Shown in pieces: positions 1 to 62,044 of a stretch of 64,000 nucleotides of DNA. The notes below the pieces were generated by a model. It was given only the letters and a program-made list of their open reading frames with translations, ran no database searches and was not told the DNA's origin. The stretch lies in the NCBI GenBank assembly GCA_951406725.2, contig OX597817.1:33046001-33110000 (forward strand), read 5' to 3'. The stretch is from Octopus vulgaris. Lineage: Eukaryota. A program made the position numbers and the translations under genes. Within the stretch, counting starts at the first letter, position 1. Every line of letters begins with the position of its first letter.

Positions 1-2437
1 CATATATGGCATCAATGACTGCGTGTGTTTTCATTTCTTGTGTTAGCATTTTATCTCCCATGGGGGGATTTGAAATAAATAAAAACCTTTAAATTGGTTT
101 GAAGAGAGTAATATACAAATAATTAAGTGTCCTCATATATCCCCTGCACTATATATATATATATATATATATTGTTGAGTTTAACTATAAATTTTATTTG
201 GCTATGAAGAGTTACAGATGTGAAAGTGAACTTGAGAGTTAATTAGTTTCTCAGATAACACACTAGAAAATAATTACTTTCTATTGCCAGTTACTCTTAA
301 GATGATTTATGATGGAAATATATCTAATGAACTATTTGGCAATTAATGCATTCAAGATAGTTGAGAATCAAGTAATATCTCTTTGTTTCTGGGAATTTGA
401 ACAAGAAAAGAAATCTAATTATGATTCTTGATAATTTTATCAACTCTCAGTTATTTTGGAGCTTCTTAAAAATAATGACAAATATAATATCAGAATTTTT
501 TTTTTTTTTTTAAATTCCAGTATTATAGAAGTAATTGTGTTTCAACTTGGTTTTTTTTTTTTTATGGGTTGCTAATTGTAAATTAAAAAAATCTGATATC
601 AGTTCAGCCCTTGCCAGCATGGAAAGCAGATGTTGAAGGAGGAGGAGGAGAAGGATGATGGAAGTGATAATGATGTTGATAATGATTTGTATTGCTGGAA
701 TCTGGAATTTATTATAAATGACAACTTTTCTTTGTGACATTTTTATTTGTTGCTTCCAAACTACGTATTTGTTCTTTTAAATCAGCCATGGGTATCCTGT
801 AGCTCATATGACTTTCTGAATGGCACACTTAAAGAAAAATTACTTAAAATATATTTAGTAGTGTGGCCTGTCTAATGATGAGCCATGTCTCATGTAGACT
901 ACGTCTCCAAAAAAAAAAAAAGGGTGCCTATGTCTGTTTTAAATGGTTATTTTCTCTTATTCTTTGTTTGTCTCTCATTCTCTCTGTCTTCATCAAAGAA
1001 CCTGTTATGCATTCTATATTCTTTTTTTTCCCCTTCAGCGATTTGATCTTTTCCAGGAGGTGAGGTTTAGTTTTTTGTGTTTTGTCTTTTACACAATAAA
1101 AATGCAATATACCTTTCTGCTTGTTCTGCACTGTAACAAAACAAAAATGCCCCTCCCCCCACCAGTTTTCAATCTCAGTAGCACTGATTACATTTATGCT
1201 ATTGTGTTTCTTGTTTGTGATTATATATATATATATATGTATGTATATGTATGTATGTATATGTAAGAACCCAGGTCATAAAAAACAGGCTCTAATATAT
1301 TCCTCAATGGAGTGGGTATATTGATATTTATACTATACAGTATTGTAGATCCATTTCAGGTGATTTTTACCGAACAGTTTTGCAATTGAGATAGTGCCAA
1401 GATGGAAGATACTTTCCATACCAGCCCTTCTGATGAGTGCCATTTTAGGTTATCCCCTAATTTGTGTGTAAAACCAATTTGTAAAATCAAATCAGCCGAA
1501 GTGGATCTAGAATACTATATATATATATATATATATATATATCTTTACTAAGTCTTAATGAAGATTGTACCTGTTAATAAAAGCCTTACATATAAGCAAT
1601 AAAAAGAAGTAAACAACTGAAAATAAATATTAATTTGTTCCTCTTTATCTATATATTAGTTTGTGTTTTGTTATAGTACACTGTGTATTATTCCTCTGGT
1701 TCTCCTGATCATAATGGTGTTCTCTGGTTGTAGTTAGTTCTCATGTCCCTTGGCAAAACACTCTGTTCTAGTTGTATTATATCAGCATTGGGCATTTTAG
1801 ATTGCCTTTCTATATATTCTCTCTTTTTGGTTTCCTTCTCTCTATACCCTACCTTTGTCTCATATTATTTTCCTTTTATCTTTCTTTCTCTCTCCTTTCA
1901 CTTTCCTTTCTTTGGCACTTTGTCTTGATTTCTTCTTGTTTTTTTTTTTTTTATTTTCTCAAATCTGATTTTGTTATTCCATTGTTTTTTTTTCCTGTCT
2001 TTCCCTAATTTTTTTATCCAGTTCTCTCTCACTCCTTTTCCCCTCGTTTCAACCCTTTCTTGCACTTACTCCCTAGCATGTCCTACAACACGTAAGCCTA
2101 AACTGACTTATTGCATCCTGAAAGTTTGTTCTATTGCTGGCATCTTGAATACTTTCTCGTCCTTTGTAATGTGAAGCTGGTTGGATATTGTGATTCCTAA
2201 CTGTTACAATAGTTTTACTGCCACCAGGTCTATATCACTACACCAATCACAATGATTTCATAATCATATTGTAGCCAACATAAAAGATAAAAAAAAAAAA
2301 GAAAACACTCATTTCTGTTCTAAACATTTACATAATTTTATGCAGGTATTTCAAATTACATTTCATGTGCACTTATGTTTAATATTTAAACATATGAATT
2401 CAGTGGAGAGACAAAGAGGCACAGATATACTATCAAA

Positions 2438-2876
2438 GGCAGCGAGCTAGCAGAAATATTAGCATGCCGGGTGAAATGCTTAGTGGTATTTCGTCTGTAA
2501 AAGCGGCAAGCTGACAGAATTGTTAGCATGCTGGACGAAATGCTTAGCAGCATTTCGTCTGCCACTGCGTTCTGAGTTCAAATTCCGCCGAGGTCAACTT
2601 TGCCGTTCATCTTTTTGGATGTCGATTAAATAAGTACCAGTTACGCACTGGGGTCGATATAATCGACTTAATCCGTTTGTCTGTCCTGGTTTGTCCTCTC
2701 TGTGTTTAGCCCTTTGTGAGTAGTAAAGAAATAGGTATTTCATCTGCCGTTACGTTCCGAGTTCAAATTCCGCCAAGGTCAACTTTGCCATTCAACCTTT
2801 CGGGGTCATACTGTGGTTGATCTAATCGACTGCTCCCCCGCCTCAAAATTTTCAGGCCTTGTGCCTAGAGTAGGAA
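2438..2876 (+). mobile_element. tRNA-derived SINE with a second copy nested inside it
   Basis: 15-bp TSD AGATATACTATCAAA (2423-2437 / 2877-2891); inner copy ~2499-2733 flanked by GGTATTTC(G/A)TCTG; GAGTTCAAATTCC B-box; conserved CTTTCATCCTTTCGGGGTCGATAAA-type central domain. Confidence 0.88.
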
Positions 2877-3666
2877 AGATATACTATCAAATGTACACAC
2901 ATATAACACTACTAAAATAAAATATGTCAGTAACTCAATAGAATAATAATAAAAAAACTGTTTTATTTGAAAATGTTTTAAATTGGGGAAGTACTTTTTC
3001 CGTCAGTTAATTTTATAATCTTAAACAATCTTGATATTTAATTAATTAATTAAGAAATTAAGCATTTACTTATTCTTTAATGAGTTCTGCTGGCATGAAA
3101 ATGGTCAGAGTCTTCAATTCTAATTTGACTTTTATGGATATTTCTCTCTTTCCTTTTCAGATTAAATTTCATTTTGTCACTCATAGTTACCACTTTCTAT
3201 TAGTTATATTCATGACAAAGATTTTACTTTACTAATATAGATCTTTTTATGTATTTTTATATATCATGACTAACTTGTAAAACATGCACCACCAACACAT
3301 ATTTTAGGGTGTTCACTAAAGTTTTTGTCATAAGTGTCATGTTCTACTTAAAATCATGAATATATCCTGTTGTTGGCTAAGATTTCAGATGTCAGAATTG
3401 GTATGATGTTCACTATATGCTCGGAGCCTGTAATTCTATTTCAAGCCCAACCTTAGTTAATATAGTAATTTTTATTCTTCTGAGGTTGATTTCCTAATTG
3501 ATTAATAGGAGTAGCTAACGAAGGAAGCTCATAAATACTTCATGATATTTCAAACATACAAAAGTTATGACACCATACAAACTTATTTTGTGTTTAGAAT
3601 TTTAAAAATGTTTTAGGTTGATATTATTTCCTGGTGAATACCTGTAACAGTCATTTCTCCTTTTAA

Positions 3667-3885
3667 CCCTTTAGCATTTAAACTGGCCATATCTGGCCAA
3701 AATATTCTACTTTTATGGTTCAAACTGGTCAGATCCAACATCTCACACCTACCCTACAATGTCATTGTAAAAATAAACAATCACATCACTGAGATCTTGA
3801 AGCCACAAAATAATGCATGATTAATTCAAAACAATGTGGATAAATAAGCATTACATTTTGACAGAATAATCTAGATGCTAAAGGG
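3667..3885. mobile_element. piggyBac-like MITE, family A
   Basis: TTAA|CCCTTTAGCATT ... ATGCTAAAGGG|TTAA. Confidence 0.85.
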
Positions 3886-7878: not shown

Positions 7879-7983
7879 CTCTATACAGCACGAGATATTG
7901 TATACGAGAGTCTGAAGAAAGATCCAGACAAGAGGACTGAAGATGATATTGAAACACTTTTGGATTTTATGAGACACTTTTCT
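7879..7983 (+). CDS. RAPGEF2: PDZ-GEF exon, pre-cNMP helical region (LYTARDIVYESLKKDPDKRTEDDIETLLDFMRHFS)
   Basis: ttccag|CTC ... TCT|gtaaat; 105 nt, phase 0-0; resembles RAPGEF2 RDxVRDCLEKDPxDRTDDDIEQLLEF. Confidence 0.93.
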
Positions 7984-8589
7984 GTAAATATTTATTCCTT
8001 TTTTTTTGTTCTTTTAATAATATACCAAAATAAAGATCTTTAATGAATAAGACAAGATAGAAATTTGAAGCAAATGATTTAAATTATTTATGCTTTGTAA
8101 ATTATAAAAGCATAAAGTAAAACAAGAAAAGAATTTTCATTGTGCTTTTAGCAGCTGTGAAGCTAAAATGTTGAATTAATGATTGCAATATGATTAATAT
8201 CCTTGTTATTATGTTGTCAAGATGTTGTTGCCCTCAGGCAAGAATAGTTTCACTGCATGTTTTTGTTAACCTGACTATTTCATTTCACCATTGAGAAGAT
8301 AATTCAAATATTTATTCCAATAATTTATATGCAAATTTCCAGATCTACAAGTCTATTGAACTCTTAGATTATTTCAGCAGCACAGCCATTCTGCATTTCT
8401 TGACTCTGTGTGTATTTGTGTGTGTAAAAGCAGCAGATCTTTCAAGGATAGTCAGAGATAGTAAAAATATTTGGCAAAGTAAGATATGAGTTAACTGTAT
8501 AGTCAGTCGGGTAATGTAGAAAAGTACTTTGCCTAATGATTGGCAGAGCAGCTGCATTGTCAACTGTTACAAGAGCCAAAAAGATTCTG

Positions 8590-10045
8590 TAGAAGGAAGC
8601 AAATAAGGAAGCACAAAATATATAGATCAGAAGCATCAAATTGATTGACTAACTTTAAACATGGCAGAACATCATAGCTCAGCTAATTAAGAGTGAATTA
8701 GATGACATACAACTTCGATTTGTACCAAGTTAGGGAGCCACTAATGCCTTCTTTTTAGCAAGACAACTGCAGGACAAGCCCTTAGCTAAAAGAAGACCTC
8801 TATAACTAGCATTTGTAGTCCTGAAGACCCTTGACAGAGTAGCATGCTTTGTAGTCTGGTAGCTGCTGCAAAAATTGGATGTAGATGAATGTCTTGCAGG
8901 AACTATGCAAGTATACAGTTACTGTCAGCAAGATGAGTTAGCAATGAGATCAGTGAGCAATTTAACATACAGATTGGCGTTCATTAAGGTTCAGTTCTCA
9001 GCCCGTTCCTATTTATTATGGCTCTCAGAGCTATAAAAGAAGAATTAAACTGATTGTTGGTAGGAACTTCTAATGAAGAGTTAAAGTTAGCAAGAAAGAA
9101 TACAGAACTCTATTGCTAAATGGTAAGTGATTCTTGATATGCAGAAAAGGTATATGAAGGCACTCTATACTATGAATCCTATGTAAACTGTGAGTGCATA
9201 AAAGTAATGGTAGGGTTATAGGAAACTGACAGAGAAGTAATACTTCATATGTAGTAGATGTATGAGGGTATACTCATGAAATTTTTGAAACTGCTCATAA
9301 AGCTCATTAGTCCTTTCGTTACCGTATTTATTTTGAGATGCTCTGTGTTTCTTTCAATTATTTTAAATATAACATAGAATTTAGTAAAATAACTTAGTCA
9401 TCATTCAGCTAGTGTTAAGAACATAAATTGGGACTAAGGTTTGGTGGAAGATTTTAATTCAGAACTTATGAAAACAAGACATTTGTACTACAGAGCCACA
9501 GCCAGTTTCAGCCGGGTTGGTAACGAAAGGGTTAAAAGCATTTGAAAGCTTCTGTTGCATAGGTAACCTAATCAGAAGTAAATGTTGTGAAAGTGTAGTA
9601 GCCAGAGTAAATACCGGGTGAAAACTGTTCAGGGAGTTACTAATTTTAATGGTGATATAGAACTTTACCCTTTATGTGAAAGATACTTTTGTATGAACTA
9701 TGGTATTGCATGATAGCAAAACATAAATATTGAGTACAGAGGATTTGCTAAGGTGAGCTGTTGTGCTAGGTGTGTAATGTTAGCATGCGTGAATGAGGGA
9801 TCACAGGTTAACTGAGAGGAAAACCAGATGTAAGGGGAATCAACTCTAATGTGCTAGTATGTTGATTGGGTGAAAAAGGTGTCAAGTATTCCAAACAATG
9901 TGGCCTGCAGGCATGTGACAAAGTGGCAAAAGCTGATTGTGGGATAATTAACGTCATCAAGGATATGATAAAGGACTACAGGTGGCGGGCTCTTTGCTAG
10001 GAATGTCGGCCTAACCCACTTACACATGTAAAAATGGGTGTAAAA
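8590..10045 (+). mobile_element. Highly decayed RTE-type LINE reverse-transcriptase relic
   Basis: Broken reading of QFGFVP..TxDAxF..RQLQEK..PLY.AFVDLEKAFDRV (~8705-8840) and GVHQGSVLSPxLFII (~8975-9020); many stops and frameshifts. Confidence 0.7.
9311..9531. mobile_element. piggyBac-like MITE, family B, inserted into an old LINE relic
   Basis: (T)CCTTTCGTTACC ... GGTAACGAAAGGG|TTAA TIRs. Confidence 0.75.
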
Positions 10046-11215
10046 TAACTAGGCTATATAGGCACCGGCATGTCTGTATGGTTAAGAAGCTTGTTTTGTA
10101 ACCATGTGATTCCATGTTCAGTCTCACTGCATGGCATTTAAGTGTTTTCTTCTATAGCCCTGGGCACAACCAATGCCTTGTAAGTATATGGAAACTGTGT
10201 GGAAGCCTGTTGTGTGTTTGTGTGTTTGCATCCCTCCACCATTGCTTGACAGTTGGTGTTTTTTTGTTTTTATCATTTTTACACCCCCATAACTTAGCTG
10301 CTCAGCAAAAGTGACTGAGAGAATGGGCAGCAGATTTTTGTTTCAAAAGAAGTTCTGGGGTTGATATGTTTGTCTAAATTTTTCAAGGCTGTGCCCCTGC
10401 ATTGCCACAGTCCAATGACTGAAACAAGGAAAAGATAAAAAGTGTAATGTGCACACACACTTTCTCTCTCTCTCTCTCTCTCTCTCTGGTAGTTTTATGA
10501 ATCACTGAATTCTGTATAATTAGCGCTTACTTGATTTACTGTAGTATTCAGTATAGGGGTAAGATATACTTTTAAATTGTTGATTATTGCCAAAGATGAA
10601 GGCAGTGGGGTTGATTTATATAAAAATATATTCAGATGGTATTAATCTTCCGTGTTATATTGAACACACATTCTCTTTCTATTTTAACATTTACAGCAGC
10701 GTTGTAGAAAAAAAACTGCACTTTCATTTTCAAGAACTCTTTGTAAGATTGTGTGAAACAGTTGCCAAAATTACATAAAACACATTGAAAAAAATTTTTT
10801 TTTCTTTGTGTATTTTCCTCTGATAATTGGTAGTTGTAGTAAATCTGTTTGAAAATCAATGATTTGACTTGATCACTTTGACCCGAGATTGGCATCCACC
10901 CAACTCATAGATTACACGTTTTCTATAAACGCCTGTTCCTGATTAACTATTTCTCAAAAATTCAAATCCATTTAAACAAATTATTACAGGTTCTTTGCTT
11001 TGTAACCACTACTCTCTGGGGCTTTTTAACAATCAAGAAGAAAAATTCTTGTTAGTAATTAGCATATTTTATGAAATGGTGCCAATTTTCTTCAAAAAAA
11101 AGTAAATACTTTTTGGTTCACTTACAACATATTAGAAAATAATTAGAAAGAAATTGAGAAGATTCCATTAATATAACTTGTCTTATTTGAGACTCTAATC
11201 CAACATTCTACATAG

Positions 11216-12150
11216 GCATGGCTGTGTGGTTAAGAAGCTCACTTCACAACCTTGTGGTTTAGAGTTCAGTCCCACTGTGCAGCATATTGGACAAACATCT
11301 TGTACTATATCTCCAAGTTTATCAATGCCTTGAGGGAATTCGGTAAATGGAAACTGTATAGAAGCTTGTGTGTGTGTGTACGTGTACGTGCACATCTATA
11401 TAATATGTGTCTGTGTTTACATGTGGGTATATGTGTGTATATTTTTGCCCCCTCACCATTTGACAACTAGTGCCAATTTATCTATGATCCTTAACTGGGC
11501 AGTTTGGCAAAAGAGTGTAGTAGAAATAGTAGCAAGCTTAAAATAAGTACTGAGTGTAATTTGATCAACTAACCCCTATAAGGTGATGCTCCAGCATGGC
11601 TACAGTCCAATGACCAAATCAAGTAAAAGAGTAAAAGCGGTGGAAATTATGTTGAGTAGAGTAGGAAAATATTTAATTTGGTAGTTTTGAAAATTTATAT
11701 TTTTGAGTTAAGATTTTGTAAAGCATGGCTGTGTGGTAAGATGTTTGCTTGCCTACCACATGGTCCTGGGTTCAGTCCCACTGCATGTCACCTTGGGCAA
11801 GTGTCTTCTGTAATGGCCTAGGGCTGACCAAAGCCTTGTGAATGGATTTGGTAGATGTAAACTCTGTGTTTGACTCTCCTTTTCTTGACACCATGTGACT
11901 GTCATGTAAGTAGTGTTATTCATTTCCAATATTCTTTGAGGTGGCAGAATTGTTAGCAGGCCTGGCAAAATGCTTAGTGCCTTTATTTTTATCCATCCTT
12001 ATGTTCTGAGCTCAAATCCTACCAAGGTTGACTTCACCTTTCATCCTTTTGGGATCAATAAAATTAGTACCAATTGAACATTAGGGCCAATGCAACTGAT
12101 TTACTCACCCACTGAAATTGGTGGCTTTGTGCCAAAATTTGAAACCAATA
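11216..12150 (+). mobile_element. Cluster of degenerate tRNA-SINEs (both families)
   Basis: Heads at ~11216 and ~11722 (GGCTGTGTGGTAAG...) and ~11940 (GGCAGAATTGTTAGCA...). Confidence 0.72.
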
Positions 12151-12624
12151 TTCTGTGAGATCATGTTTGGGCATGGTGAAATATTACCTTGCTTAGAAAT
12201 AAGTGAGTGTTGGCTACAGGAATGACCATTGGGTGTAAAAAATCTGCCTCCATACACTCTGACTCATGCTAGCATGGAAAAGTGATGCTAAATTATTGGT
12301 TTTGTGGGTGTTTAAAGATAATGGCAAATTATCCCTTTGTTCTGTCAAATTTATTATCTCATGTGGTCATTAAAATGTGCTACCACTTGTTGATGTGTCA
12401 TTTCTGTGCATATTTAATAAGGATGTTTAATTTTACTTTTATTATTTATTTATTTTATCTCATACCATGAATAATAATCTTTTAAGTCAGATACACTATG
12501 AAAAGTTGAAAAAGAGTTAACTGATATTTAACTTAGATTTTGGCACTAGAGATTCTGGCATTTAAAATTCTGTGTCCATTGTTAGAGATGGGAATTTTAA
12601 TCTTTCTTTTCTTTTTTCTACACT

Positions 12625-12903
12625 CATCATCATCATCAGCATCATCATCATTTAACGTCCGCTTTCCATGCTGGCATGGGTTGGACAGTTTGACTCAGAA
12701 CTGGCGAGCCAAATGGCTGCACCAGGCTCCAATCTGATCTGGCAGAGTTTCTACAGCTGGATGCCCTTCCTAACACCAACCACTCCAAGAGAGTAGTGGG
12801 TGCTTTTACGTGCCACCGGCACGAGGGCCAGTCAGGCGGTACTGGCAACGGCCACGCTCAAATAGTGTTTTTTACGTGCCACCTGCACAGGAGCCAGTCC
12901 AGT
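12625..12903 (-). mobile_element. (GAT)n-tailed RTE 3'-end/SINE fragment
   Basis: (CAT)n-TTTAACGTCCGCTTTCCATGCTGGCATGGGTTGGAC..., reverse complement of 52850-53137. Confidence 0.85.
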
Positions 12904-13326
12904 CCTGTGTATTCAATTTTTCTAGGTTTTGTTGATACTAGCAACATTATTTAACAAATATTAAAAGCCAAGGAAAGCATCAAACAGTTAAGAATCCCAT
13001 CAGTGTTACTAATATTACTCTATAGTAAGGTGGTGAGCTGGTAGGATCATTAGCACACTGGACAAAATGATAAGTGGTATTTCGTCTACCTTTATGTTTT
13101 GAGTTTATATTTCACTGAGATTGATTTTGGCTTTCATCCTCTTGGGGTTAATAAAATAAGTATTAGTTGGGCAATGGGGTCAATGTAATCAAATTCCCCA
13201 TCTCTCAAAATTACTGGCCTTGTGCCAAATAAGAATTTTACGTTATAGTTTTTTTCAGGATACTCATATGAAAGAAATCCCTTCATCTCTCTCTCTCTCG
13301 TGTATATATATATATATATATATATT

Positions 13327-13522
13327 CTTTTACTTATTTTAGCCATTTGACAGCAGCCATGCTGGAGCACTGCCTGTAGTTGAGCAAAGTGACCCCAGTG
13401 CTTATAATTTGTAAACCTAGTACTTATTCTATCAGTCTCTTTCGCCAAATCACTAAGTTACTGGGATATAAAAGGCACCAGCGTTGGTTGCCAAGCAATG
13501 TTGGGGGCACACACAAACATAT

Positions 13523-13569
<47 letters not shown>

Positions 13570-13718
13570 CGATGGGCTTTCATTTTCCGTCTAACAAATC
13601 CACTCACAAGGCTTCGGTCGGCTTGAGGCTTTAGTAGCCTCGAGGTGCCACGCAGTGGGACTGAACCTGGAACAGTGTGGTTGGTTAGCAAGCTACTTAC
13701 CACACAGCCACTCCTGCC
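13327..13718 (-). mobile_element. tRNA-derived SINE, second family, near full length with internal (CA)n(TA)n
   Basis: Minus strand begins GGCAGGAGTGGCTGTGTGGTAAGTAGCTTGC...GGTTCAGTCCCACTGCGTGGCACC; sibling plus-strand copies at ~10061-10440, 11216-11636, 11722-11865, 30434-30580, 37895-38080 and 43382-43702. Confidence 0.82.
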
Positions 13719-14235
13719 CATATATATGGGTTGCTGAACTCTACACGTTTTTTCATTTTCTCTTAGCTTATTTCTCATTCCTTTCTGTTGAAGAGCATAG
13801 GCTGAAAACAATAGACTTTTTCATTTTCAAACTAATACACTTGCTTGTTGCTTATATACCTATCAAGGCCTTTTTTCTTTTTTGTTTTTCTATATATATA
13901 TATGCACACACACACACACTTCTTTACTTTTGCCACATACAGTACACCTTCAGTCTCTTCAGTAACATACCCCATCTACAGTCAGTTGTTTATTTTGCTC
14001 TGATTAGAATATCTAGTGTCAAACCAAAGGAAATTACTTACACCCATCGTTATGTAAATTAATGTTTTTCTATTCTACTAGCAATAGTGATGTAGTCATG
14101 TTATAAGAGTTAAAAACTTCAGGAGGTTGAATTTTAATTAATTGCTCATTGTTTTTCTTGATGTTATCATATATATTTGGTTATTGTTGTGGCTACATAT
14201 ATCTATCTATATTACCATTCCTTTTTGTTTTACAG

Positions 14236-14426
14236 GCTTTTGCAAACATGACACTGGCCACACGGCGGGCTCTGTGTGCAGTCATGGTTTATGCACAAGT
14301 AAAGGAGGCTGGCACTCAAGTAATGAAAGATGGAGAAATGCTCGACTCTTGGTCTGTGATTCTCAATGGAGAAGTAGAAATTACATACTTAGAGGGGAAC
14401 AAAAAGATTTTAGCAATGGGAAACAG
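14236..14426 (+). CDS. RAPGEF2: PDZ-GEF exon, cNMP-binding domain ([18 protein letters not shown]...[13 protein letters not shown]...)
   Basis: tttacag|GCT ... AAC AG|gtatgt; 191 nt, phase 0-2. Confidence 0.95.
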
Positions 14427-15688
14427 GTATGTGAAAAATCATATCTAACTAAGTATTTTTTTTTACCTAAAACTTACCTGTCTTTTTCTAAACATTTTCC
14501 TGGCATTTTTCATTCTATTTAATCAGACATCCCTTTTAGCTCCATAACAAACTGTTGACATCTGACATGTCTTTAAACAAAAACAGACTATCAATCATAA
14601 TATTGCTAAGATTGCTGTCTTGTCTTACCTTTGAAACAAATTCAATGTATAAAAATGTTGTACAAAATCCAAATTTAAAAAAATTTTATATATCATGTAC
14701 TCGTTCATTGAAGTTAGTATGCTTGGCTGTAATGTTAGGTTCAAATCTATGAAATGCACATATTACATTGACAGAGATTGAAAGAAGCTTATTGCACATG
14801 CATATGTTTACTTTCATACTTCTCTGCAAATTGTTCAGCTGCAAGGGGTGATGTTGTTGCATATCATGTCAACACAACAAATTATCTGCTAGTTTAGTGC
14901 CTTTGGAAAACTGCAAAATAAAAGTTACCTCACTTGAAAAACCAGTAAGGATTATTGAAAAGAGCATCAGGCTGTAAAAAATTGTTTCGAGGATATATTT
15001 ATCTAATCCATGCTAATATGGAAAAATGGGCATAAAAATGAGGCATTGATAATATGTATTCAAGTGTAAGTGTATGCTTAGATATTCCATAGCCTGTTAC
15101 TAGTTGAACAAAACAGTGATAGTATTGACATTTCTTGTTGACATTTTGACCGATTACTCTGCACTTTCAGTTGGGGTTGGTGACAAGAACTGGCTGTAAA
15201 ATCCTGCTTCAAATAAGTCTGTGTCCAGCCTATGCTAGTATGGAAAAATAAATGTTGGGACAAATGAACATCATCTTCATCATCGACATTTAACTTCTCC
15301 CAGTGTTAGAAGCATATAAGCAACTCAGCTGGCAAAAATGAGTAGTACCTGTATTTCAAAGGGCCGGCCTTGTCACACACTGTGTCATGCTGAATCTCCC
15401 CGAGAACTACTTTGGGGGTACACGTGCTTGTGGAGGGCTCAGCCACTTACACATTAATTTCACAAGCAGGCTATTCCGTTGATTGTATCAGCTGGGACCC
15501 TCGTCGTCGCAACCGATGGAGTGCTCCTGTAAAGCAACTGAGAAAACAAAACTCACTTGGCTGATGTGCCAGTCTGCTACAAGTTGAACTCCCAGCTGCT
15601 ATTGGTTCTTATTTTCAATTGAGTATATTGTTGCATGTTGAAATAAAATATCTTGTTTAAGGGTACAATGTGCTTTTTAGTCAGGGAA

Positions 15689-15921
15689 TTGAACCTACAA
15701 CCTTATGTTTGTGTGCTTTACACTAACCTGACCATTAGGTCATGTGCCTTTACATTTTTACCTGAGAGTAGATCGGATGTAACATGAAATAAAGTGCCTT
15801 GTTTGAGGGTACCATATGCTGCTTGGTCTGAGAATTGAACCTACGGCCTTATAATTGCGTGCTTAATACTATAACCATAAGGCCTTGTGCCTTAACGTTT
15901 TTACCTATGTTTGCCTTATGT
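15689..15921. repeat. 233-bp direct duplication, second copy at 20504-20736
   Basis: Near-identical (a handful of substitutions) from TTGAACCTACAACC to TTTGCCTTATGT. Confidence 0.9.
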
Positions 15922-16222
15922 ACCTATCTACATACGGCCATGTACCTATGTTTTACCTAAACCTTAATCTAGTCAAGGAACGTAACTCTGCTTCTCTGTG
16001 TTTGAATGACAAAACGAGTTTCACACCTATTTCATGGTTGAATTGGTTTAACAGGAATTGCATCCAACTGTGTAAAACAGTTGTTCCAACTATTCCACTC
16101 ATGCTAGTTATGGTAAATGGATATGAGAAAAAAAAAATCGATTTCTGTTTAAGTTTCACTTATTGTTGTCAGAATTTTGTTTTATTTATATAAATCAATT
16201 TTCTCTCTCTCTCTTTTTCTAG

Positions 16223-16340
16223 TTTTGGTGTTTCTCCTTCTCTGGATGTACAATTGAATAATGGTGTCATGGTAACCAAAGTTGATGACTGCCAATTTGT
16301 CTGCATTGCACAAGATAAATATTATAATATCTTACATGAG
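16223..16340 (+). CDS. RAPGEF2: PDZ-GEF exon, cNMP-binding domain (SFGVSPSLD...[22 protein letters not shown])
   Basis: tttctag|T TTT GGT ... GAG|gtatgt; 118 nt, phase 2-0. Confidence 0.95.
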
Positions 16341-16497
16341 GTATGTTCTGTCAGCTTGACAAAATCTGTTCTTTCTTTTGTTGTTTATATATCAACATTT
16401 GTCTCTGATTTATTATATTAAAAAAAAGTTTTTTTCACTGTATTATCATCTTCATCATCATCATCATTACTAAGGTAGACTTTCATTTTTATACCAG

Positions 16498-16602
16498 GGT
16501 GAAGAAAACACAAGAAAACATGAGGAACAAGGCCAGGTTGTCATGGTTACTGAACACCGTGTATTAGATGGTTTAAACAGAAAGGGACATATTGTTATCC
16601 GC
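16498..16602 (+). CDS. RAPGEF2: PDZ-GEF exon (GEENTRKHEEQGQVVMVTEHR...RKGHIVIR)
   Basis: ataccag|GGT ... CGC|gtaaga; 105 nt, phase 0-0. Confidence 0.95.
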
Positions 16603-16888
16603 GTAAGAATAACTTATTTCATTCAGTTATTTCTGTAATCAGTTAATCTTCCATTAATACTTCATTTTATTGTTGTCATCTGAATTAACTGTGATTTCCA
16701 ACTCAAGTTATTATTACACTATATTTATGTCTGTGTGAATTCAAAATTGTACAACTAACTTTACATTTCCATTAACTTATTTTACACCAGAGTTGTCACT
16801 GTGAGATGTGGCATTAGCAGATTTGCATAGAGAAAAATTTTCTTAATGAATATATGGTGTGTGTGTGTGAGTGTACATATATATATAT

Positions 16889-17396
16889 ATCCTTGAGTAT
16901 AATCTACATTTTTTCCTTAAAATTTAACGATCAAAATCCCTAGTGCATACTGTAGATGATGTTAAAAATGAAAATTATTTTCTAAGCAATGTCCAAGTCT
17001 CAATTTGCTGTCTGGCAATGTTTATTCAGACGCATTTTGTGATGTCGGGCACGAAAATACCTTAAGCTAAGCTTGAAAGCAATGAAGTCATAAAAGAATC
17101 ATCCATAACTTGCAATAAGCAACATTTATTAAACGTTATTACTGTTATTTCTTTATTTTCTGCAAACAGAATGCACAAAAAAGCTACACGTTTGCATTAT
17201 GTTATATATACAATAATAATAAAGGACGTTACCGTATACATTTTTACAAACCAAGGACGTTATGTAGACCTCCTTGACTCAAGTTAGAGAAGGGGTGCGT
17301 ATTATACATAAGGTTTAGGTTTTTCAGAGGTACAGCCCCCAATAAAAATCTTCTGCATATTATACTCAAGGGCGGACTATACTTGAGGATTTACTG
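16889..17396. mobile_element. Second copy of the Tc2-like MITE (left end eroded into (TA)n)
   Basis: Shares both terminal regions with 21191-21702 in the same orientation; the central segment differs. Confidence 0.78.
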
Positions 17397-17973
17397 TGTG
17401 TGTGCATATATATATGTATATATATATATATATCATCATCATCATCACAAGATGAAAACATTGCAATTTTAAGTGAGATTGAACCTTTTAAAATGTCACT
17501 TAATGGAGATTTTGAAACAGAGAGAATCACTTCTCTTATAACTGAAAAGATCAAATTAGATTATTTATTCATCTCATTCTCATAGTTTGTGTTGTTCTTC
17601 ACTCAGAAATAAATTTTGTTAGATACATTTTTACATATTTGTGCATTTACAGAATACACCACCTCTTGTAGATATGATGCTATTTTTATTTGCATTTTTT
17701 CCCCCCGACTTTCTGTCTGTTATGGACAATGGTTGGTTTATATTGTTCTATTAGTAGGGCATGTTAAATGATAAAATGATAAAACAAACTTTGCAGTTAC
17801 TGTAATTTTGTGCTGCTTCTGTGATAAGGAATTCAGTGATAGCTCTGCCATCTATCATTTTCCACATGAGAAAGTTGAATACAATGTTATGATAAGTGCA
17901 ATTTCAAAGCTAATTGCATTTACCGAGTCAATCTGGTGATGTTTGTTTGTGCATGCGTGCACTCACTCACTCA

Positions 17974-18006
<33 letters not shown>

Positions 18007-19039
18007 ATATAAACAGACACACTAATTTATCTGACTAGTCTATGTGTCTATATAGGCTTGTCAGATAAATTTGTATATGAGGTTGTTGGATCTAATTTCC
18101 TCATTCTGCTCATATTATTCCTTTGACTGTTATATTATGTAAGGGCATACTACTTTAGCTTTTTGTTTTTATTACTGGCTTCCGAACATGGATTACTGTT
18201 ACATAACAAGAACTGTATTTGTGTTGGAAAAAGATACCTGGGATAGAAGAATATTATTTGGAAATGCCATAAAATTGAAATAAATTTTAAGATAAAAAGC
18301 ATGTTCCTAATGTTAATCTCTTAATCTTCTTCAAACTACTTTAAAGAAAAAAATGATAAGGATACATTGAATTAGAATGTGAATTTGGTTTCTTGTTTAA
18401 CCTCCACCATCTTTTGTAAGTTCCAAAAATTCAGAAACTAAATTTTAAGTATTGTATTTTTATTATCGATCTATAAATATTTTTATTTAAACTTTTTTTT
18501 TTATTACTATGTTTTCTAATCTTGCAATATTAGAAGTACAGATCCAAAAAGTTAAGATTTATAAATACAAATATAAAAAGAAGAAAAAAATTACTAAAAT
18601 CAAGACAAAATAATGAATATAAGAGAGGTCGTCATGACCTCCAATCAGTCGAATCCAAGCAAAATATAAAAGGGTGAATAGAGAATTGATTTAGTGATAA
18701 TTATAGCTTGTTGGTAAAGATTTAGCCTTGCTGACTGTTCTAATATAATTTTAGAACATAGAATTGGTTGTGTGTGTGTAATATTTAATAATTGAATAAT
18801 AATCTATTTTAGCCTATAATCTAGCATAAAAGTGTTAAAGAAAGAGTTCTCTAATGATTATTTGACTATACTAGGTGATGTATTTGTTAAACTTAACCTA
18901 TCTTTTTAGTTATAGTGTTTGTTTGTTCAACTGCTGGTACTTCATTCTCTACTTGTGTACCTGGAAATTTTTCCTTGGGGGTATTTGTTTTATGGAAAGT
19001 GAAAGAAACACTCCATATCATCATCGTCATCTTTATCCT

Positions 19040-19239
19040 TCAAAACTTCCATGCTTCCTGAGATTCGCCAACACTACACCTGATTTTCTCCCCTCGATAC
19101 ACACGCAAGCATGTATCTGACTCATACACTGTTCACTTTCCAGACATTTGTACATTACTCCATATGCTTTATACGCACTTTTGACAAGTTGTGGTGCACC
19201 TGAGCACTGTATACAATAATTTCATTATTATTATTATTA
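19040..19239 (+). mobile_element. Probable LINE 3' end with (ATT)n tail
   Basis: GC-richer block ending ...CTGTATACAATAATTTCATTATTATTATTATT; family not identifiable. Confidence 0.5.
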
Positions 19240-20917
19240 CATTCATTTCCCATGCTGGCATGGATTGTGCAGTTCAACAGGCTCTCACAGATCAGTGAAC
19301 CATATCCTCCTCCAGTATCTCAGTTGCAGCTTGGTTTCTATGGTTGGGTGCCCTTCCTGCCACCAGCCACTTTATAAAGCATACAGGGTGCAATTTTTTT
19401 TAGCACTAGCACTAGTGTTGTCATGTCCTCAGCAATTTTAAAGATATTTCTTTATTGCCTACAAAGGGTTAAACATAGAGGGGACAAACAAGGACAGACA
19501 AAGAGATAAAGTCGATTACATCTACCCCAGTGAGTAACTGGTACTTAATTTATCGACCCCTGAGTCCTCTTAATCCCTGCATTGTATATGCTTGATTGAC
19601 CAACTATTTCACTGGGTGTGTTAGGTACCACCAGCACTAGTGAGCTTGCTTCATAATTCACAGAGCAAAAGAATGTTCAAGGTGTGGTGAGATGTTAAAG
19701 TATGCAGGACAGAACAGATTTATTGTTATAAAAGGGTGGTTGTGTGAGAAGTTACAATATGATGGGAGTGTGCGTGCATATGCATACATATGTTTGTGTG
19801 GACATTTATAAACTACATTGAGCTACAGTTACAAATGGTGGAGTCCTGGCTGGTGGCTGAGTTTCAGCCTGTGACATTTGTTGATATTTCTTGCCAACAC
19901 ATTGTCTGCTACCTCTGTACTTTAGAATTCCTCTAGAATAAAAAAAAAAAAAAGAAAAAAAATTCCCTTATTTGAAAAAGCAGATAAGGGTTGGTGACAA
20001 GAACATCTGGCTATAAAAAATCCTGTTCAGCTCCCCCCCCCCCATCTTCACATCTCTTTAGGCCATGCTAGCATGAAAAAAGAGATGTTAAATAAAATAA
20101 ACTAATGACTGTTTGTGTGTGCTCGAAATATTCTACATTGAAATAGTAGTTTTAGTTTATCTCCATTCAGAATTTAATGTCATTAAGGATGATGATGATA
20201 TCAATAACTGAAGCCTATTTTTTTTTATTATCAGTTCATTTTATTCTTTATTATCAATTCATTTTAATCTGGCTTAAATTTCTCTCCTCCTGCCTATGAT
20301 TGTGATTGTTCAAATATTAAAGATACGAAAGATATTCAGATAAGGATTCGTTATGCACTCAGTTTTCCTGATTGCTTGTCACAAATTAACTCTTTTAGCA
20401 GGCTGCTGTAAATTTTTAGCTTGGTAGCCTCAAGTAGGAAGAATAGTGGTCACACTGTTATCAAGTACTTAGAATCTGGGGTTCTGATCCTACAACCCTA
20501 TGTTTGAACCTACAACCTTATGTTTGTGAGCTTTACACTAACCTAACCATTAGGTCATGTGCCTTTACATTTTTACCTGAGAGTAGATCAGATGTAACCT
20601 GAAATAAAGTGCCTTGTTTGAGGGTACCATATGCTGCTTGGTCTGAGAATTGAACCTACGACCTTATAATTGCATGCTTAATACTATAACCATAAGGCCA
20701 TGTGCCTTAACGTTTTTACCTATGTTTGCCTTATGTTCAGTGCCATTCAATTAGCCATTGCATTATATATACAGATGTTAAAAAAAAAATAAAACACTTT
20801 TTTTTTAACATCTGTAACTAGCTTCCTTTATTCTTTGTATTCAATTTAAAAAAAAGTAACCTGTTTAAACTGTAATCTTGTTGTTTTAATCTTATTTTTC
20901 TGTATTTTCTACTTCAG

Positions 20918-21100
20918 GGGACTTCTGAACGTCTGATGCAACATTTAATTGAGGAGGAAAATTCTTCAGTCGACCCTACCTACGTTGAAGACTTCCTTTT
21001 AACATATCGTACATTCCTCAGTAGTCCAACATTTCTGGCCAATAAGTTATTGTCTTGGTTCAACAATAATGAACTTGGAAAATCCAATCTCAAGATGAAG
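20918..21100 (+). CDS. RAPGEF2: PDZ-GEF exon, REM domain ([13 protein letters not shown]...[15 protein letters not shown]...)
   Basis: cttcag|GGG ... AAG|gttatt (weak donor); 183 nt, phase 0-0. Confidence 0.92.
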
Positions 21101-21190
21101 GTTATTTCTTGTTTATATTTTTCAAATCTACTGTGTCTCTATATTTTAATCCTTATAAGTTAAAAATGAACACTAACCAAATACTGTATA

Positions 21191-21702
21191 CCGTAAATCC
21201 TCTAGTATAATCTGCATTTTTTCCCCAAAAAGTAAAGGTCAAAATCCCTAATGTGTACTATAAACAAGGTTAAAAATGAAAAATATTTTCTAAGCAATGT
21301 CCGAGTCTCTATTTGCTGTCCGGCAATGTTTATTCAGACGCATATTGTGATGTTGGGTGCGAAAATACCTTAAGCTAAGCCTGAAAGCAATGAAGTTATA
21401 AGAGAATCATCCATAACTTGTAGTAAGCAACATTTATTAAAATAAAAGTATTCAGAACACAGAATAACATATAACAAAAACAATTTGCAAACATATTTAC
21501 ATTCTCATAGAACATCACCATTATTGTATTGCGCATGCGCGGAAGTGTTTGTTCAACTAGGTGCTGCTGGCTTAATTACACACGACTTGAGTTAGAGAAG
21601 GGGTGCGTATTATACACAAGGTTTAGGTTTTTCAGAGGTACAACCCCCTAAAAATCCCCTGCGTATTATACTCAAGGGCAGACTATACTTGAGAATTTAC
21701 AG
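21191..21702. mobile_element. Non-autonomous Tc1/mariner (Tc2-like, CCGTA end) MITE
   Basis: TA|CCGTAAATCCTCTAGTATAATCTGC ... GCAGACTATACTTGAGAATTTACAG|TA; a second copy lies at ~16889-17396. Confidence 0.8.
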
Positions 21703-22320
21703 TACTAGTATTTTTAAAACAGTTTGTTTGAGTTTTCCACAAAATATTGTCAGGTCAAATCGAAAACTTACATTTTTCTTATTCAGATGTTTATGGTCCC
21801 CACACTCATAGGATCATCTGATCACTGCCTCATAACGTATCACACCAAAATATTCCCCCATAGTTCCACTTTCATACATATTATGATCATTTAAGTGATC
21901 AGTTCTGTACTGATTATTGGAGTAAAACAGCTTCATTTTTGGTAAAAATTATTATAACACTGTCTTTAAGTCATTGTTGAATGATGAAAGAGATAAATTG
22001 CTCCAATTCCCCTTACGATCAGGGAGGAATGTGGGCTCACTCACTTAGCCAGTGGGGTGGTATCATTTGCAGGCTAAAACAATGCAAAAGTACATTGTTT
22101 AGCAATGTGTAGCAACATCTGATAGCCTGGTTGGTCACACGATGTGATCACATACTTTTACAACATTAACCATAATAATGTGTAATGCTTGTTACTAAAA
22201 GATTCTTCAAAGATTGTTCTGAATTTTACTAAATAAATTATGATTTTATTAAATATACATTTATGAAACATTACTCATTGTATTTCATTAATAACCCATC
22301 TTGTCTCTTCACTTTTCCAG

Positions 22321-22428
22321 GTTGCCAGAGTGGTGTTATTGTGGGTGAACAATCATTTCAATGATTTTGAAATGGATGCAGTTATGTGTGAATTTTTGGA
22401 GCAATTTGAAAATTTATTGGTCCAAGAG
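22321..22428 (+). CDS. RAPGEF2: PDZ-GEF exon, REM domain ([17 protein letters not shown]...)
   Basis: ttccag|GTT ... GAG|gtaaat; 108 nt, phase 0-0. Confidence 0.95.
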
Positions 22429-23371
22429 GTAAATTTCATTCACTTTTATAATCAAAAGAAAATATATTTCATCAATTAATCTCAATAGTACTAAAAGTTT
22501 TATCTATATTTAAATATCCTTCAAAAATGGTAAAATTCAATTCATTTACATATCTTGATTGATATCCTGTTTACGTCAATTTATTTTTAGGAGAGTTATT
22601 ATAAGAAAATCTATACAGAGTAATCATTATAAATATTACTGTCATGTAGGGGGTGGGAATAGAAGGTAGAATACATAGCAATTACAGGATCTCCTAAACT
22701 TTGGAATCTGCAAATGGTATGATCTGGGTCCCATTGAGTATACCTCTCATTGGGTCAACTAAAATTATCAGGAACTGATAACAAACACTATATACTGTAA
22801 ACACACACACACATTGGAGCTGAAATATTAGAGCAAATGATCTTTGTAAAATGTAAACAAAGCATTTCACTTATGAAATGATTCGTCTGAATGTCCTCTA
22901 ACCCTGTTTTATAAGGAAACCTCTGCAGGCATATATAATGTAGTAGGATGTGCTGGACATGATAGTATCAACAGTTTCTAACTAATTTTTCTTTTCAATG
23001 ATAATCATGTTAATATTTATTTCAAGAAGAACCTTTCTCAAGGTCTTATGTTTGAATAAAGAATACATATTCGATTGTTAACTTTGTTATATTTCCTTCA
23101 TTACAATATATATATATATATGTATGTATGTGTGTATGGTGAACATGATGCTCTCTTTACCACTTCCTCTCTCTTATAGCTATTACTTTCTCACACTCCC
23201 TGTCGGTCATGACTATTACTCTCACTACTTCTCCTTCACTGAATTACGATTTTCTCTCCTCTCCCTTCACTTATACTACTCTTTCTCTCACTCCCTCCTA
23301 CTGCGTGATTTTGGACAAATATATACGCACAAATATATAAAAACACTATGCTCATTATTAATTTAGATGAT

Positions 23372-23758
23372 CCTTCTGTTAGATATAGCTTCATAAGCAT
23401 TTTATGGTTGGTGAATATGAAACCTGTTTCACAGATAAACTATGTAGTTCGTATTCTAGAAACATATGTGAACTTAACATAAAGTACTAATATTTTGAAA
23501 ATTATTCATTAAACCTTACAATCTTATGTCATCTCAATCATCATCATCATTTGAACATGGATGTTAAATGATGATGATGGTGATTGAGATGACATGAGGT
23601 TGTAAGGTTTAATGTATAATTTTCGAAATATTAGTACTTTATGTTAAGTTCACATATATGTTTTCAGAACATGAGCTACATAGACAGTTTATCTGTGAAA
23701 CCAGTTCCATATTCACCAACCATAAAATGTTTATAAAGCTATTTCTAACAACAGAAGG
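23372..23758. repeat. Long fold-back palindrome, ~190-bp imperfect stem, apex AACAT-GG-ATGTT at 23554-23565
   Basis: Left arm 23372-23558 is the reverse complement of 23561-23758 with scattered substitutions and small indels. Confidence 0.93.
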
Positions 23759-30396: not shown

Positions 30397-30429
<33 letters not shown>

Positions 30430-30433
30430 CATA

Positions 30434-37083: not shown

Positions 37084-37147
37084 TATATTTAATGTATTTT
37101 TGATGACAGTGAAGAAATGATTATTTTCTCTTTTTCTTATTTTCCAG

Positions 37148-39836: not shown

Positions 39837-39944
39837 CAACACGTCGGAGAGACACTTCTCCTGCGCTCAACGTTGCTAACTCCAGTGGCGTTACAATAAA
39901 TGCTAATGATGAAAAACGTTCATATCCTGTTGGTCCAAAGTTTG
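39837..39944 (+). CDS. RAPGEF2: PDZ-GEF exon, C-terminal tail (TRRRDTSPALN...VGPKFG)
   Basis: tttcag|CA ACA ... TTT G|gtatgt; 108 nt, phase 1-1; leads into the conserved G-xxSP-xxxxKLLALS motif. Confidence 0.88.
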
Positions 39945-42129
39945 GTATGTTGTGCAGTTTAGAAATTTCTCTACATAATTTTGTTTTCTTGCTTGCTTTC
40001 TGAAAATGATTTTTGCTTACATTTTCATTTATATATTTTTTTTTAATGTATTTTATTGTTGTCAATCATGCCTTTGCTCATATTCAAAAATGCATTATTA
40101 TAATTTGATATCAAATTTCTGTTTGCTAGCTTTCATATATTCAGATATTGTTTGTCATCATTGTTATTGAAAGAAAGAACAGCAACAATAATGCATTGTC
40201 TTTCAGACACTGTATTACTGTACCAGTATGGTAACTTTATATTAGCTATAAGAATTTTCTTATATGTGTATTTAGCATTTATAATTATGTGTGTGAATGT
40301 GTGTGTATATGCACACACATAATTATAAACTTTAGATTTAATATTTCTTTAGTTGTATTTGCATATGTCTTTAGCAATTTAAATATAATATTTCTTGTAG
40401 AAAGTTCAATGAAGAAAGGAATTATGCTATAATTTTATCACCCATTACTTTCGTAGAAACAAGAGCAGTCACCAAATGAACTTAATTAAGAATCGATATA
40501 GGCAAGCATGTTATCATGCCACTTCTTTTTGAAATGTAATATACTTTTGTGTCTTGGATCTTAGAAATATTTAAATTGTTTTTGGAAATAAATTTTCAGA
40601 TTTCTTGGGTCAGTAATCTTAATGAGCAGATTACTTTTCTATTGTGATCTCTTTTCCCTCCCATTTCGTTCAATATATTTTCTCTCCCAAAACTTCATTA
40701 TAGATATTTTTTTCTTCATTATTAACTTTAGGTTTTGTTTAGGAAATTCTGCTACGTTTCTGTTCCTGACCTACTGAAAAAAACCCCTTTTTCATAGTGA
40801 GTTCTCTTTTACCAACATTTAAGTCAGTGTTATTATTTTTTTATCCATACACACGTGTTGAATTTTGCTATTCATCCTTCACAAAATTTCCTTCCTCTCT
40901 ATTAATAGAATAAGCTTTTCTCACAATTTTTCCCATCTCAAATTTCAATCTTTCTCCTAGTTTTATTTTATATCATTGGTGTAACACAACCGTGGCTGTT
41001 GGTTCATTTTGTCTCACCTTTAGACTACATATTATTCACTGCTATATCTTGTTCTGTAGGCTATTTCACTGGTCTCTGTTTTGTTTCCAGCATTTTCATA
41101 TCCTCTAGAACCACCTCAATGTAGATGTAGGTCTGTTTTCACAGCTCTCCTAAATATTACATCTGCAGGTAGTCCATTTCTTTCATTTTTTTTTCCTTCT
41201 GATTATTTTGTTGTTTTAAAACTCCTCCATCCAGGTGCTCATCTCATGCATCGCTGTTCCCCTGGGTCTCTAAGTGCTTTGCAATTTCTTCCTGGAATCT
41301 ACCCTTTTATAAAGGATTCAAAAAGTGATAGCAGTAAGTGTTAATGTCAGCTTTGCTCTCTTACCTCCCCTTGAATTCTGCAGATTCATGGTTGCATCTT
41401 TATAGAGCAGTTTCTCCATCTAACAATAAGTGTGTTTTTCATTTGTTTGTTTTTTTTCCCCCATCCAGGTGAGTATTTAATGTTGCTCTTTAATCAGCAA
41501 TTTTCAACAATCCCCTGTTAGTTAGTTGTCTAGATGTTCTTCAAAGCATCATATTGTCTTTGCATCCTCTTTGAATTCCTAACTTACTAACCAAGATAGT
41601 TCTTTTTTCCACTGTCTATATCACTAAACCATCCAAGTTGATTGAACTTTGAAATTCAATTTAAAAAGAAAAAAAAGAAAAAAAAGAGAAAAATTTTCTG
41701 GATGAAATATTGTCTTGTCAATGTTTTGAGAGTCATGCTTTATGAGAATTATGATCAGACAGTATCTGTTCTTCAATCTGAACTCACAAACTAAAATGTC
41801 ATTGTGCAACATGTTTCTTCCTCTCTCATTAAACGTGTTCATTCTGCTTCTAAATTTCATTCTCTTCCTGTATATTTTTTACTTAAATTTTTGGTTATGA
41901 TATTTATTGACTAACATTTGAATCCTGATGTTCTTTTCTTAAAATATAGGAAATTATTTAGGATAGCAAAATAAACTCAAATTTTTTTAAGTGAAAAAAA
42001 CATAAATGTGATAAAGTCATTCATAAAAGGCATGATGTATAACGTGTACACACACACAATATATATACACACACTCACACATACAAATATATAATATATA
42101 TATACACATATATAAATATATTATTTATA

Positions 42130-42160: not shown

Positions 42161-42576
42161 GAAATCATTGTAATCACCGTTTTAAATATTTATTTCTTGA
42201 TTCAGCTAATTCTTTAAACTTTCAGAAAGACTGTATAACCAGAGCCAGTTTTATTGCTATGATCTTGTGTAACCCTGATGACTTGACAAACTGAATTCTA
42301 AACTTTGTCTTCACAAGTTTTTGCTTGTTTATTTTTTAATTAATTACTCCTTTTTCCTTTCGTCAGTAATTGCTTCTGTCCCTCCCTGTTGTCCCTATGC
42401 ATGCTCCAACTGAAATGAGCTGACCTGACCTGACCTTTTATGTTGTGCTTACCATGTATCATCTCAGCTACAGGTTGTATGAATAATAGAACCTTTAGCA
42501 GCAGGATGTGCAAAAAAAAAAAAAAAAAAGAAAAATGCTAGCTCTGTGAATGCATGTTCATTTCTCTTCTTCCTAG

Positions 42577-42798
42577 GTTCCGAGTCTCCTGAGGCTGTGC
42601 GAAAACTCCTGGCTTTATCTAATAAAGTCCGCCCACACAACCCTAAACAACACCATCCCCCCACTCCTATTACTAGTCCTATAACTCCACGACGACCTAC
42701 CTCACCAAGGCAAACCAGGTCCGTTCCGGTGCTCCTTTCTCACGAGAGTTCTTCTGTCAACAGTATGAGTAATTTAACTCGCAAACCTAGTCGAACGG
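42577..42798 (+). CDS. RAPGEF2: PDZ-GEF exon, C-terminal tail (SESPEAVRKLLALS...VLLSHESSSVNS)
   Basis: tcctag|GT TCC ... ACG G|gtaaga; 222 nt, phase 1-1; SPxAxxKLLxLS and LxxESSSV motifs typical of the family. Confidence 0.92.
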
Positions 42799-55100: not shown

Positions 55101-55286
55101 GTTCAATAGGTTCATCTGATTCTGCAAGTCCAACTAGTAGTCTGAACAGCTACCAGCACCAGTACGAAACTGATTCTGGACACAACAGCATTGCTTCCTC
55201 CAACTTTGATAGTCGCAGCACCAGCTCAATTGGCTCATCCAACTCTCCAACTCCAGCTAGACGTATCAATCATGTTCCACAGAGCG
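55101..55286 (+). CDS. RAPGEF2: PDZ-GEF exon, Ser-rich tail with DSGHNS degron-like motif
   Basis: taccag|GT TCA ... AGC G|gtaagg; 186 nt, phase 1-1. Confidence 0.87.
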
Positions 55287-60353: not shown

Positions 60354-60639
60354 TATATATATATGTATATATATGTATATATATATGAATTGTGTACTGT
60401 CTGTTGTAGAACTTAGCTGTGTAAGTGTTAGTATTTTATTTACTTATTTGTTTTGGCAAGTTTATTTGTACTGTTTGTCTTTTGTCCATTTTGCCTGTTT
60501 TTTGTTTACATCTGTTGTCCTATGTTGTCTTTATATGTCACTTGTCTTTTGTCTACATGTTCACTTAATATGGTTTCTTTTAAGTAGGGACAAGAATTAA
60601 GAACTATTAAGGGGAAAAATATTAGGAGTGGTAGTGTAA

Positions 60640-60859
60640 CCCTTTAGCATTCATATTACTCTGTTAAATCAGATACAGTGCTTATTAGTTAACATTGTTG
60701 TGAATTAATCATTCCTTATTTTGTAGCTTCAAGTTTTTGATAATGTTTGCTTATTTTAGAAGGACATTGTAGGGTAGGTGTAAGAAGCTAAATCTAGCCA
60801 CTTTGAACATAAAACAAAGAATATTTGGGCTGAACTTGGCCAGTTTAAATGCTAAAGGG
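60640..60859. mobile_element. piggyBac-like MITE, family A (opposite orientation)
   Basis: CCCTTTAGCATT ... AATGCTAAAGGG|TTAA; internal sequence is the reverse complement of 3667-3885. Confidence 0.82.
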
Positions 60860-62044
60860 TTAATTTCAATATATATTTATTTCATTTTTTTTCTAAGTAA
60901 TTTCAGATTATTAACTGCATGGTTCTAATATTAAAACTTTGTAACATTTAAAAAATTTCTTTATTTTTATAATGCTACACATCCAATTTTAAAAATGGAT
61001 GCCATAACACATACATACACACATTACATGCATATATGAATACAATTAGTTACAAAAATTTCAGTTTCTTTTTGTTTTTGCTTTCATTCTGTATAAAACA
61101 TTGAGGGTAGTAGCCTTATATATTGTTTTTGGGTTTGATTTTTTTTTAGCTTAAATTTTGTTATTAGTGAATTATTATTGTTTGTGCCAATGCTCCTGCA
61201 TGGCCAGGACTGCGATGTTTTAAACCAAACTTTTCAGTATGTTTGCTGTAATGTTGACAACTGTGTTTGTCTTGGTAACCTTATTTATTTAGTGCTTTAG
61301 TAAGTCATTATTTTTATATAATGTTTTTTTTTTATTTGCTGCACATCGTTTGTCTCTCTCTGCAGAGCAGCAAAATTTCAGGAGTGGGTTAACTTTGACA
61401 AAAGGAAAAGAGAGAGAGAAAAAAAAAGCATTTAAATGTTTAATCAAATGTGATTATATCTAATCTGTCGGTGCATTTGTTAAAGAGAAATTCTGATTCA
61501 ATTAAGGTTGATAAACCTATGATTTGAAAAATATTTTTCTTTTAATTAATGGAGATTTTTCATTTAATTAATGGAGATTTTTCAGATTGCTCTTCTGTTA
61601 GTTGTTAATTATTTTTACTTTTCTCTTTAGGAAGCAAAAAAAAACAAACCTAATGTATCTTAAGTTTTTTTCTTAACAGATTTACTTACATTCCAAATTT
61701 GGAATTTTTATTTTGATAGATGTCCAGCACAGGAAAGGTGGGACATCGAAAACCTTACTGGATATTTGACAAACAAGGGGTAATCACACAAGTTCAATGT
61801 TTGTCTGTCTGGTGTCCAGTATTAGTTAAAAGTGAACCCTTGTATGTACCTCTGTATGTCCAATATTTACATATCACCTGTATGTCTGTGTCTGCTCAAC
61901 CCCCTTCATCACCTTTGTTGGTCTTGTGCTTTCTCTTTAGTAGTTAGTTAAGTAGGTCTACCAGCTGTCGATGGAAGAAAAATAAAAAAAATCAAACAAG
62001 AGATACAGACAGAGACTTCATTATTGAAACTCATTTACTTGCAG

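What the first reader, a model, noticed from the sequence alone, without database searches (positions are those of the whole stretch)
1039..61737. Possible hidden microexon programme in this PDZ-GEF gene (synthesis)
Seen: besides the 23 constitutive exons, the introns contain several AG-(3-33 nt)-GT units whose lengths are multiples of 3. Each is stop-free in the phase its host intron requires (1039-1059, 37521-37532, 39195-39200, 42468-42473, 61366-61383, 61720-61737). Several have long pyrimidine tracts or nearby TGC/TGCATG motifs. All fall outside folded domains, before the cNMP domain or in the disordered tail. Established: neural microexons regulated by SRRM3/4-Srrm234 (eMIC) and RBFOX are enriched in GTPase regulators and are often missed by annotation. 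Inference: this may be a lineage-specific neural microexon set. Caveat: short AG..GT pairs arise by chance in 50 kb of intron, so some are likely false.
Basis: partly seen in the sequence, partly recalled or inferred. Interest (0 to 1): 0.75.

Follow-up and report, generated by a model that had tools for sequence, protein, structure and literature searches.

The report
One octopus microexon, one tail-swapping exon
In an octopus Rap-activating signalling gene, one of six proposed tiny exons is real and already annotated, a second is really the start of a longer exon predicted to cut off the protein's docking tail, and the other four are likely chance matches.

Summary
The window is most of the Octopus vulgaris RAPGEF2 (PDZ-GEF) gene. 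All six AG..GT units exist, but the property is ordinary: 1,373 such units on the sense strand of the introns against 1,327 antisense. 1039-1059 is a real 21-nt cassette exon: it ranks first on splice-site score, is in 14 of 16 octopod protein models and is skipped in 2, so it is not hidden. An unnamed, likely more distant cephalopod has an unrelated optional 8-residue insert at the same junction. 61720 is a real acceptor (spliced joint in 2 of 4 runs), but not of an 18-nt microexon: the frame runs on to a stop at 61767-61769, and this 16-residue ending matches the other cephalopod's alternative C-terminus at 14 of 16 residues. It would remove the -SAV PDZ-binding end and is in none of the 16 octopod models. 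37521, 39195, 42468 and 61366 have no transcript support (0 of 22 models); 42468, 61366 and an unlisted unit, 2077-2091, keep eMIC-like features and stay open. Neural specificity was not testable. A programme is not shown.

The parts
1039..1059 (+). Real 21-nt cassette microexon, phase 0, adds RFDLFQE just before the helix that opens the second cNMP domain
   Evidence: In 14 of 16 octopod models (O. bimaculoides, O. sinensis, O. vulgaris), skipped in P0133 and P0122; maps exactly between AG and GT; rank 1 of 1,373
61720..61779 (+). Alternative stop-carrying exon (acceptor shown; 3' end at 61779 inferred for run X1; may read on to AATAAA at 61981 in run X9). 16 codons then TGA at 61767-61769; new end -LLDI
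   Evidence: Joint 55286 to 61720 in X1 and X9, 0 in X3 and X5; branch after 61779 before GT; 14 of 16 residues identical to the C-terminus of P0136, P0137, P0139
37521..37532 (+). Candidate, likely false: strong donor but no real acceptor
   Evidence: Acceptor score -0.2, AG-free zone 19 nt; direct junction in 22 of 22 cephalopod models; no read-level test
39195..39200 (+). Candidate, unsupported: long pyrimidine tract, middling donor, no UGC
   Evidence: Rank 5; 0 of 22 models; no read-level test
42468..42473 (+). Candidate, unsupported but eMIC-like (three CURAY, UGC at -22, TGCATG on both sides); a 9-nt form ending 42476 has the better donor
   Evidence: 0 of 22 models; run X9's contig fits the direct 39944-42577 join exactly
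61366..61383 (+). Candidate, unsupported but eMIC-like (AG-free zone 61 nt, UCUC run, UGC); weak donor
   Evidence: 0 of 22 models; no joint among the 15 rows shown of 405
2077..2091 (+). Unlisted 15-nt candidate in the same intron as 1039; best eMIC-like architecture in the gene
   Evidence: Rank 3; AG-free zone 55 nt, UGC at -16, branch motif at -72, donor 7.7; 0 of 22 models
41235..41333 (+).
   Evidence: 5 of 16 octopod models
42577..42798 (+). Cassette exon of the tail (not constitutive)
   Evidence: 10 of 16 octopod models; joint to 55101 in X3 and X9
55101..55286 (+). Tail exon whose donor chooses between 61720, 62045 and exons beyond the window
62045..62233 (+). Cassette exon with a proline-rich LPPY motif; alternative to 61720
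   Evidence: 10 of 16 models; joint from 55286 in 4 of 4 runs
7879..39944 (+). Core exons of RAPGEF2: cNMP, REM, PDZ, RA, CDC25 domains
   Evidence: Exon map from P0002 and P0123; Pfam

Best explanation
This is ordinary alternative splicing of the octopus RAPGEF2 gene: 1039-1059 is a real, already annotated 21-nt cassette exon, 61720 is the real acceptor of a stop-carrying exon that is predicted to replace the protein's tail, and the other four units are likely chance AG..GT pairs. Shown: inclusion of 1039-1059 adds seven residues in the acidic linker at the start of the helix before the second cNMP domain, and skipping restores the spacing seen in other animals. Inferred: its strong splice sites and lack of UGC make it a mostly included exon recognised without eMIC, and the insert would tune how the N-terminal region packs on, or binds partners near, the cNMP domain. 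Shown: the donor at 55286 splices to 61720 in 2 of 4 runs. Inferred: translation then stops 16 codons later, so the product would keep the whole catalytic core but lose both LPxY motifs and the -SAV PDZ-binding end, ending in -LLDI, and would no longer dock on MAGI-type scaffolds; conservation of that peptide in a second cephalopod suggests that the short protein is made.
For: Chance level of the raw pattern, 1,373 vs 1,327. 14 of 16 octopod models include and 2 skip 1039-1059. Linker length is 12 residues in the skipped form, 19 with the exon, and 9-15 in the 305 of 326 non-cephalopod proteins where the pattern matched. Joint 55286-61720 at depth 48 in X1 and 391 in X9. X1's onward piece starts at 61750, which places a branch after 61779 before a GT, not after 61737; bin depth 11,103 observed against 11,160 for a 60-nt exon. 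3 of 6 full-length unnamed cephalopod proteins end in the matching peptide, 14 of 16 residues identical. 292 of 326 non-cephalopod proteins end in SAV; RAPGEF2 binds MAGI PDZ domains (PMC8428372, table passage). The other four: 0 of 22 models.
Against: Protein models and assembled contigs are biased against 6-12 nt exons, so absence is weak; only 15 of 17 members of the octopod cluster were listed and record names run to isoform X18. 37521 and 39195 had no read-level test. eMIC targets have weak acceptors (PMC8797185 section 10), which my matrix penalises; a filter for eMIC-like features gave 8 sense against 3 antisense (23 against 8 without a donor cut), with thresholds chosen after seeing the candidates. 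The 3' end of the 61720 exon rests on contig breaks and depth sums, which the tool says cannot show RNA ends, and X9 fits a read-on to about 62005 better (275,711 vs 287,109 observed; 187,758 for 60 nt). The joint table showed 15 of 405 rows.
Confidence: 0.78

Rival explanations
1. A real neural eMIC-driven microexon set is hidden here: 42468 (6 or 9 nt), 61366 and 2077 are included in neurons and missed by annotation.
For: The genome carries an SRRM_C (eMIC) exon over the Pfam cut-off, 32.6 bits vs 27. These three have AG-free zones of 48-61 nt, UGC and, for two, CURAY motifs; with the branch motif required the filter gives 3 sense (two nested at 42468) and 0 antisense. Vertebrate Rapgef2/6 has a 24-nt neural microexon (PMC12626420 supplement file 12), and neural exons recur in the same gene families (bioRxiv 10.64898/2026.09.05.749416 section 10). 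Mytilus has an optional short insert at the junction that hosts 42468.
Against: 0 of 22 cephalopod models; X9, a run that uses the 61720 exon, fits the direct join at 42577; filter thresholds were post hoc and the strands differ in composition; donors of 42468-42473 and 61366 are weak (-1.1, 2.5).
Confidence: 0.15
2. The 61720 exon is a poison exon: it lowers RAPGEF2 output through nonsense-mediated decay rather than making a short protein.
For: In X1 it appears to splice onward at 61779 to an exon outside the laid stretch; the branch position allows 70008 or 80608 and excludes 75872. A join to 70008 would leave further junctions downstream of the stop (50-nt rule, recalled).
Against: 14 of 16 residues conserved to the stop in a second cephalopod; the joint is abundant, deeper than the 62045 joint in X1; the stop is only 10 nt from 61779, so a join to the last exon, or use of AATAAA at 61981, would escape decay.
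Confidence: 0.2
3. All six are chance and there is nothing here.
For: Equal counts on both strands.
Against: 1039-1059 is in annotated proteins of three Octopus species; the 61720 acceptor carries spliced joints.
Confidence: 0.02

Closest known systems
RefSeq/GenBank octopod RAPGEF2 isoform models (e.g. XP_014786847.1 with, XP_014786849.1 without the 21-nt exon)
   Same: Same gene; they already hold the 1039-1059 event, the 99-nt cassette and the tail skipping.
   Different: None of the 16 seen holds the 61720 exon or the other four candidates.
Vertebrate Rapgef2/Rapgef6 24-nt neural microexon (zebrafish and mouse; PMC12626420)
   Same: A short in-frame cassette exon in the same gene family; deletion raised movement frequency in zebrafish larvae.
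   Different: Different position (just after the Pfam RasGEF region, near octopus junction 35204-36351 by my reading) and unrelated sequence; none of the six candidates lies in that intron; neural regulation is shown there, not here.
eMIC/Srrm234 (SRRM3/4)-dependent microexons (PMC8797185)
   Same: Regulator domain present in this genome; 42468, 61366 and 2077 show the acceptor architecture.
   Different: The one confirmed microexon has a very strong acceptor and no UGC; dependence and tissue not tested.
Recurrent ('type I' and 'type II') neural exon evolution across bilaterians (bioRxiv 10.64898/2026.09.05.749416)
   Same: Two unrelated short exons at one junction in two cephalopod lineages look like type I recurrence; different sites in vertebrates, bivalves and gastropods look like type II.
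   Different: Neural specificity is not shown; RAPGEF is not named in the paper's main text (0 hits), and its supplements, which cover O. bimaculoides, could not be seen.
Alternative C-termini that add or remove a PDZ-binding motif (SynGAP, GIV/Girdin; search listing only)
   Same: Splicing swaps the scaffold-binding end of a GTPase regulator.
   Different: Different genes; for octopus RAPGEF2 the binding change is predicted only.

Membership tests
RAPGEF2/6 (PDZ-GEF) | cNMP, REM (RasGEF_N), PDZ, RA and CDC25 (RasGEF) domains in order, C-terminal SAV | tested here: met
   Pfam on P0123, P0122, P0140 (cNMP scored in P0122 and P0140, not in P0123); exon map; C-termini
Cassette microexon (1039-1059) | At most 27 nt, canonical AG/GT, frame-preserving | tested here: met
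   21 nt, phase 0
Cassette microexon (1039-1059) | Both inclusion and skipping forms on record | tested here: met
   14 include, 2 skip, of 16 octopod models; models, not raw reads
Cassette microexon (61720-61737) | Donor directly after 18 nt, in-frame join to the next exon | tested here: not met
   Contig branch falls after 61779, not 61737; peptide conservation runs past the GT to the stop
Cassette microexon (37521, 39195, 42468, 61366) | Inclusion junction in a transcript | tested here: inconclusive
   0 of 22 models; 42468 and 61366 not seen in 4 runs of contigs that drop rare forms; 37521 and 39195 had no read-level test
eMIC/Srrm234-dependent neural microexon | eMIC-bearing regulator encoded in the genome | tested here: met
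   PF15230 match 32.6 bits, cut-off 27
eMIC/Srrm234-dependent neural microexon | UGC near a weak 3' splice site, long AG-free zone, strong branch point (for 1039-1059) | tested here: not met
   No TGC within 30 nt, no CURAY within 100 nt, acceptor 14.9, AG-free zone 40 vs median 37
eMIC/Srrm234-dependent neural microexon | Same architecture (for 42468, 61366, 2077) | tested here: inconclusive
   Features present, but 8 sense vs 3 antisense under post hoc thresholds
eMIC/Srrm234-dependent neural microexon | Neural-specific inclusion | not testable with these tools
   Runs are coded without tissue
eMIC/Srrm234-dependent neural microexon | Inclusion depends on the eMIC protein | not testable with these tools
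   Needs a minigene or knock-down
RBFOX-regulated exon | TGCATG enriched in flanking introns | tested here: inconclusive
   3 of 6 against 18% background; none near 1039-1059 or 61720
Conserved intronic element | Conservation peak above intron background in related genomes | not testable with these tools
   No other cephalopod genome is held

The most novel reading that the evidence does not exclude
Cephalopod RAPGEF2 carries its own neural splicing switchboard: the intron before the second cNMP domain is a hotspot where two cephalopod lineages independently gained unrelated microexons (7 and 8 residues) and where a further eMIC-type exon (2077-2091) waits unannotated; a cephalopod-wide, unannotated stop exon swaps the SAV scaffold-binding end for LLDI in neurons; and 42468 or 61366 are further eMIC targets.
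Probability: 0.15. Interest if true: 0.55.

Novelty: new member of a known kind. Interest (0 to 1): 0.3.

Why it matters
Microexon programmes are barely described in cephalopods: the search 'microexon' with 'octopus' gave 4 papers (3 listed), none on this gene, and one octopus transcriptome study reports no major departure in splicing from other invertebrates without using the word microexon (PMC9699675 passages). This gene offers two cheap, testable events: a lineage-restricted microexon at a junction that seems to have gained an exon twice, and a conserved tail-swapping exon absent from the octopod models seen, which would uncouple a Rap activator from its junction and synapse scaffolds. Neither is a new kind of mechanism, and the six-member programme as proposed is not supported.

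Tried and rejected
Run search: no RNA holder listed on record; runs are 'RNA?' guesses, though the four laid show GT..AG joints at known exon ends. These remain open. A search for short proteins across the 1039 junction gave 16 hits, none named as a cephalopod and none above 86% identity; I did not inspect them further. A tail search found no octopod cluster beyond the three already held (only 7,975 candidates scored). A counterpart of the other cephalopod's 8-residue insert in the octopus host intron: best score 21 of 38, without splice sites. Counterparts of the gastropod and bivalve optional inserts in introns 31058-31575 and 22429-24727: none. The two-residue likeness between 42468 and the Mytilus insert was judged chance. 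A LIR-like F-x-x-L made by inclusion of 1039-1059 was considered and dropped: such motifs (recalled) are too common. Several regular expressions missed species and were redone. Earlier scan notes: nothing. Paper searches; no listed title or abstract start concerned these exons. PMC12626424 has no 'rapgef' or 'octopus'. bioRxiv supplements are closed and may list these exons.
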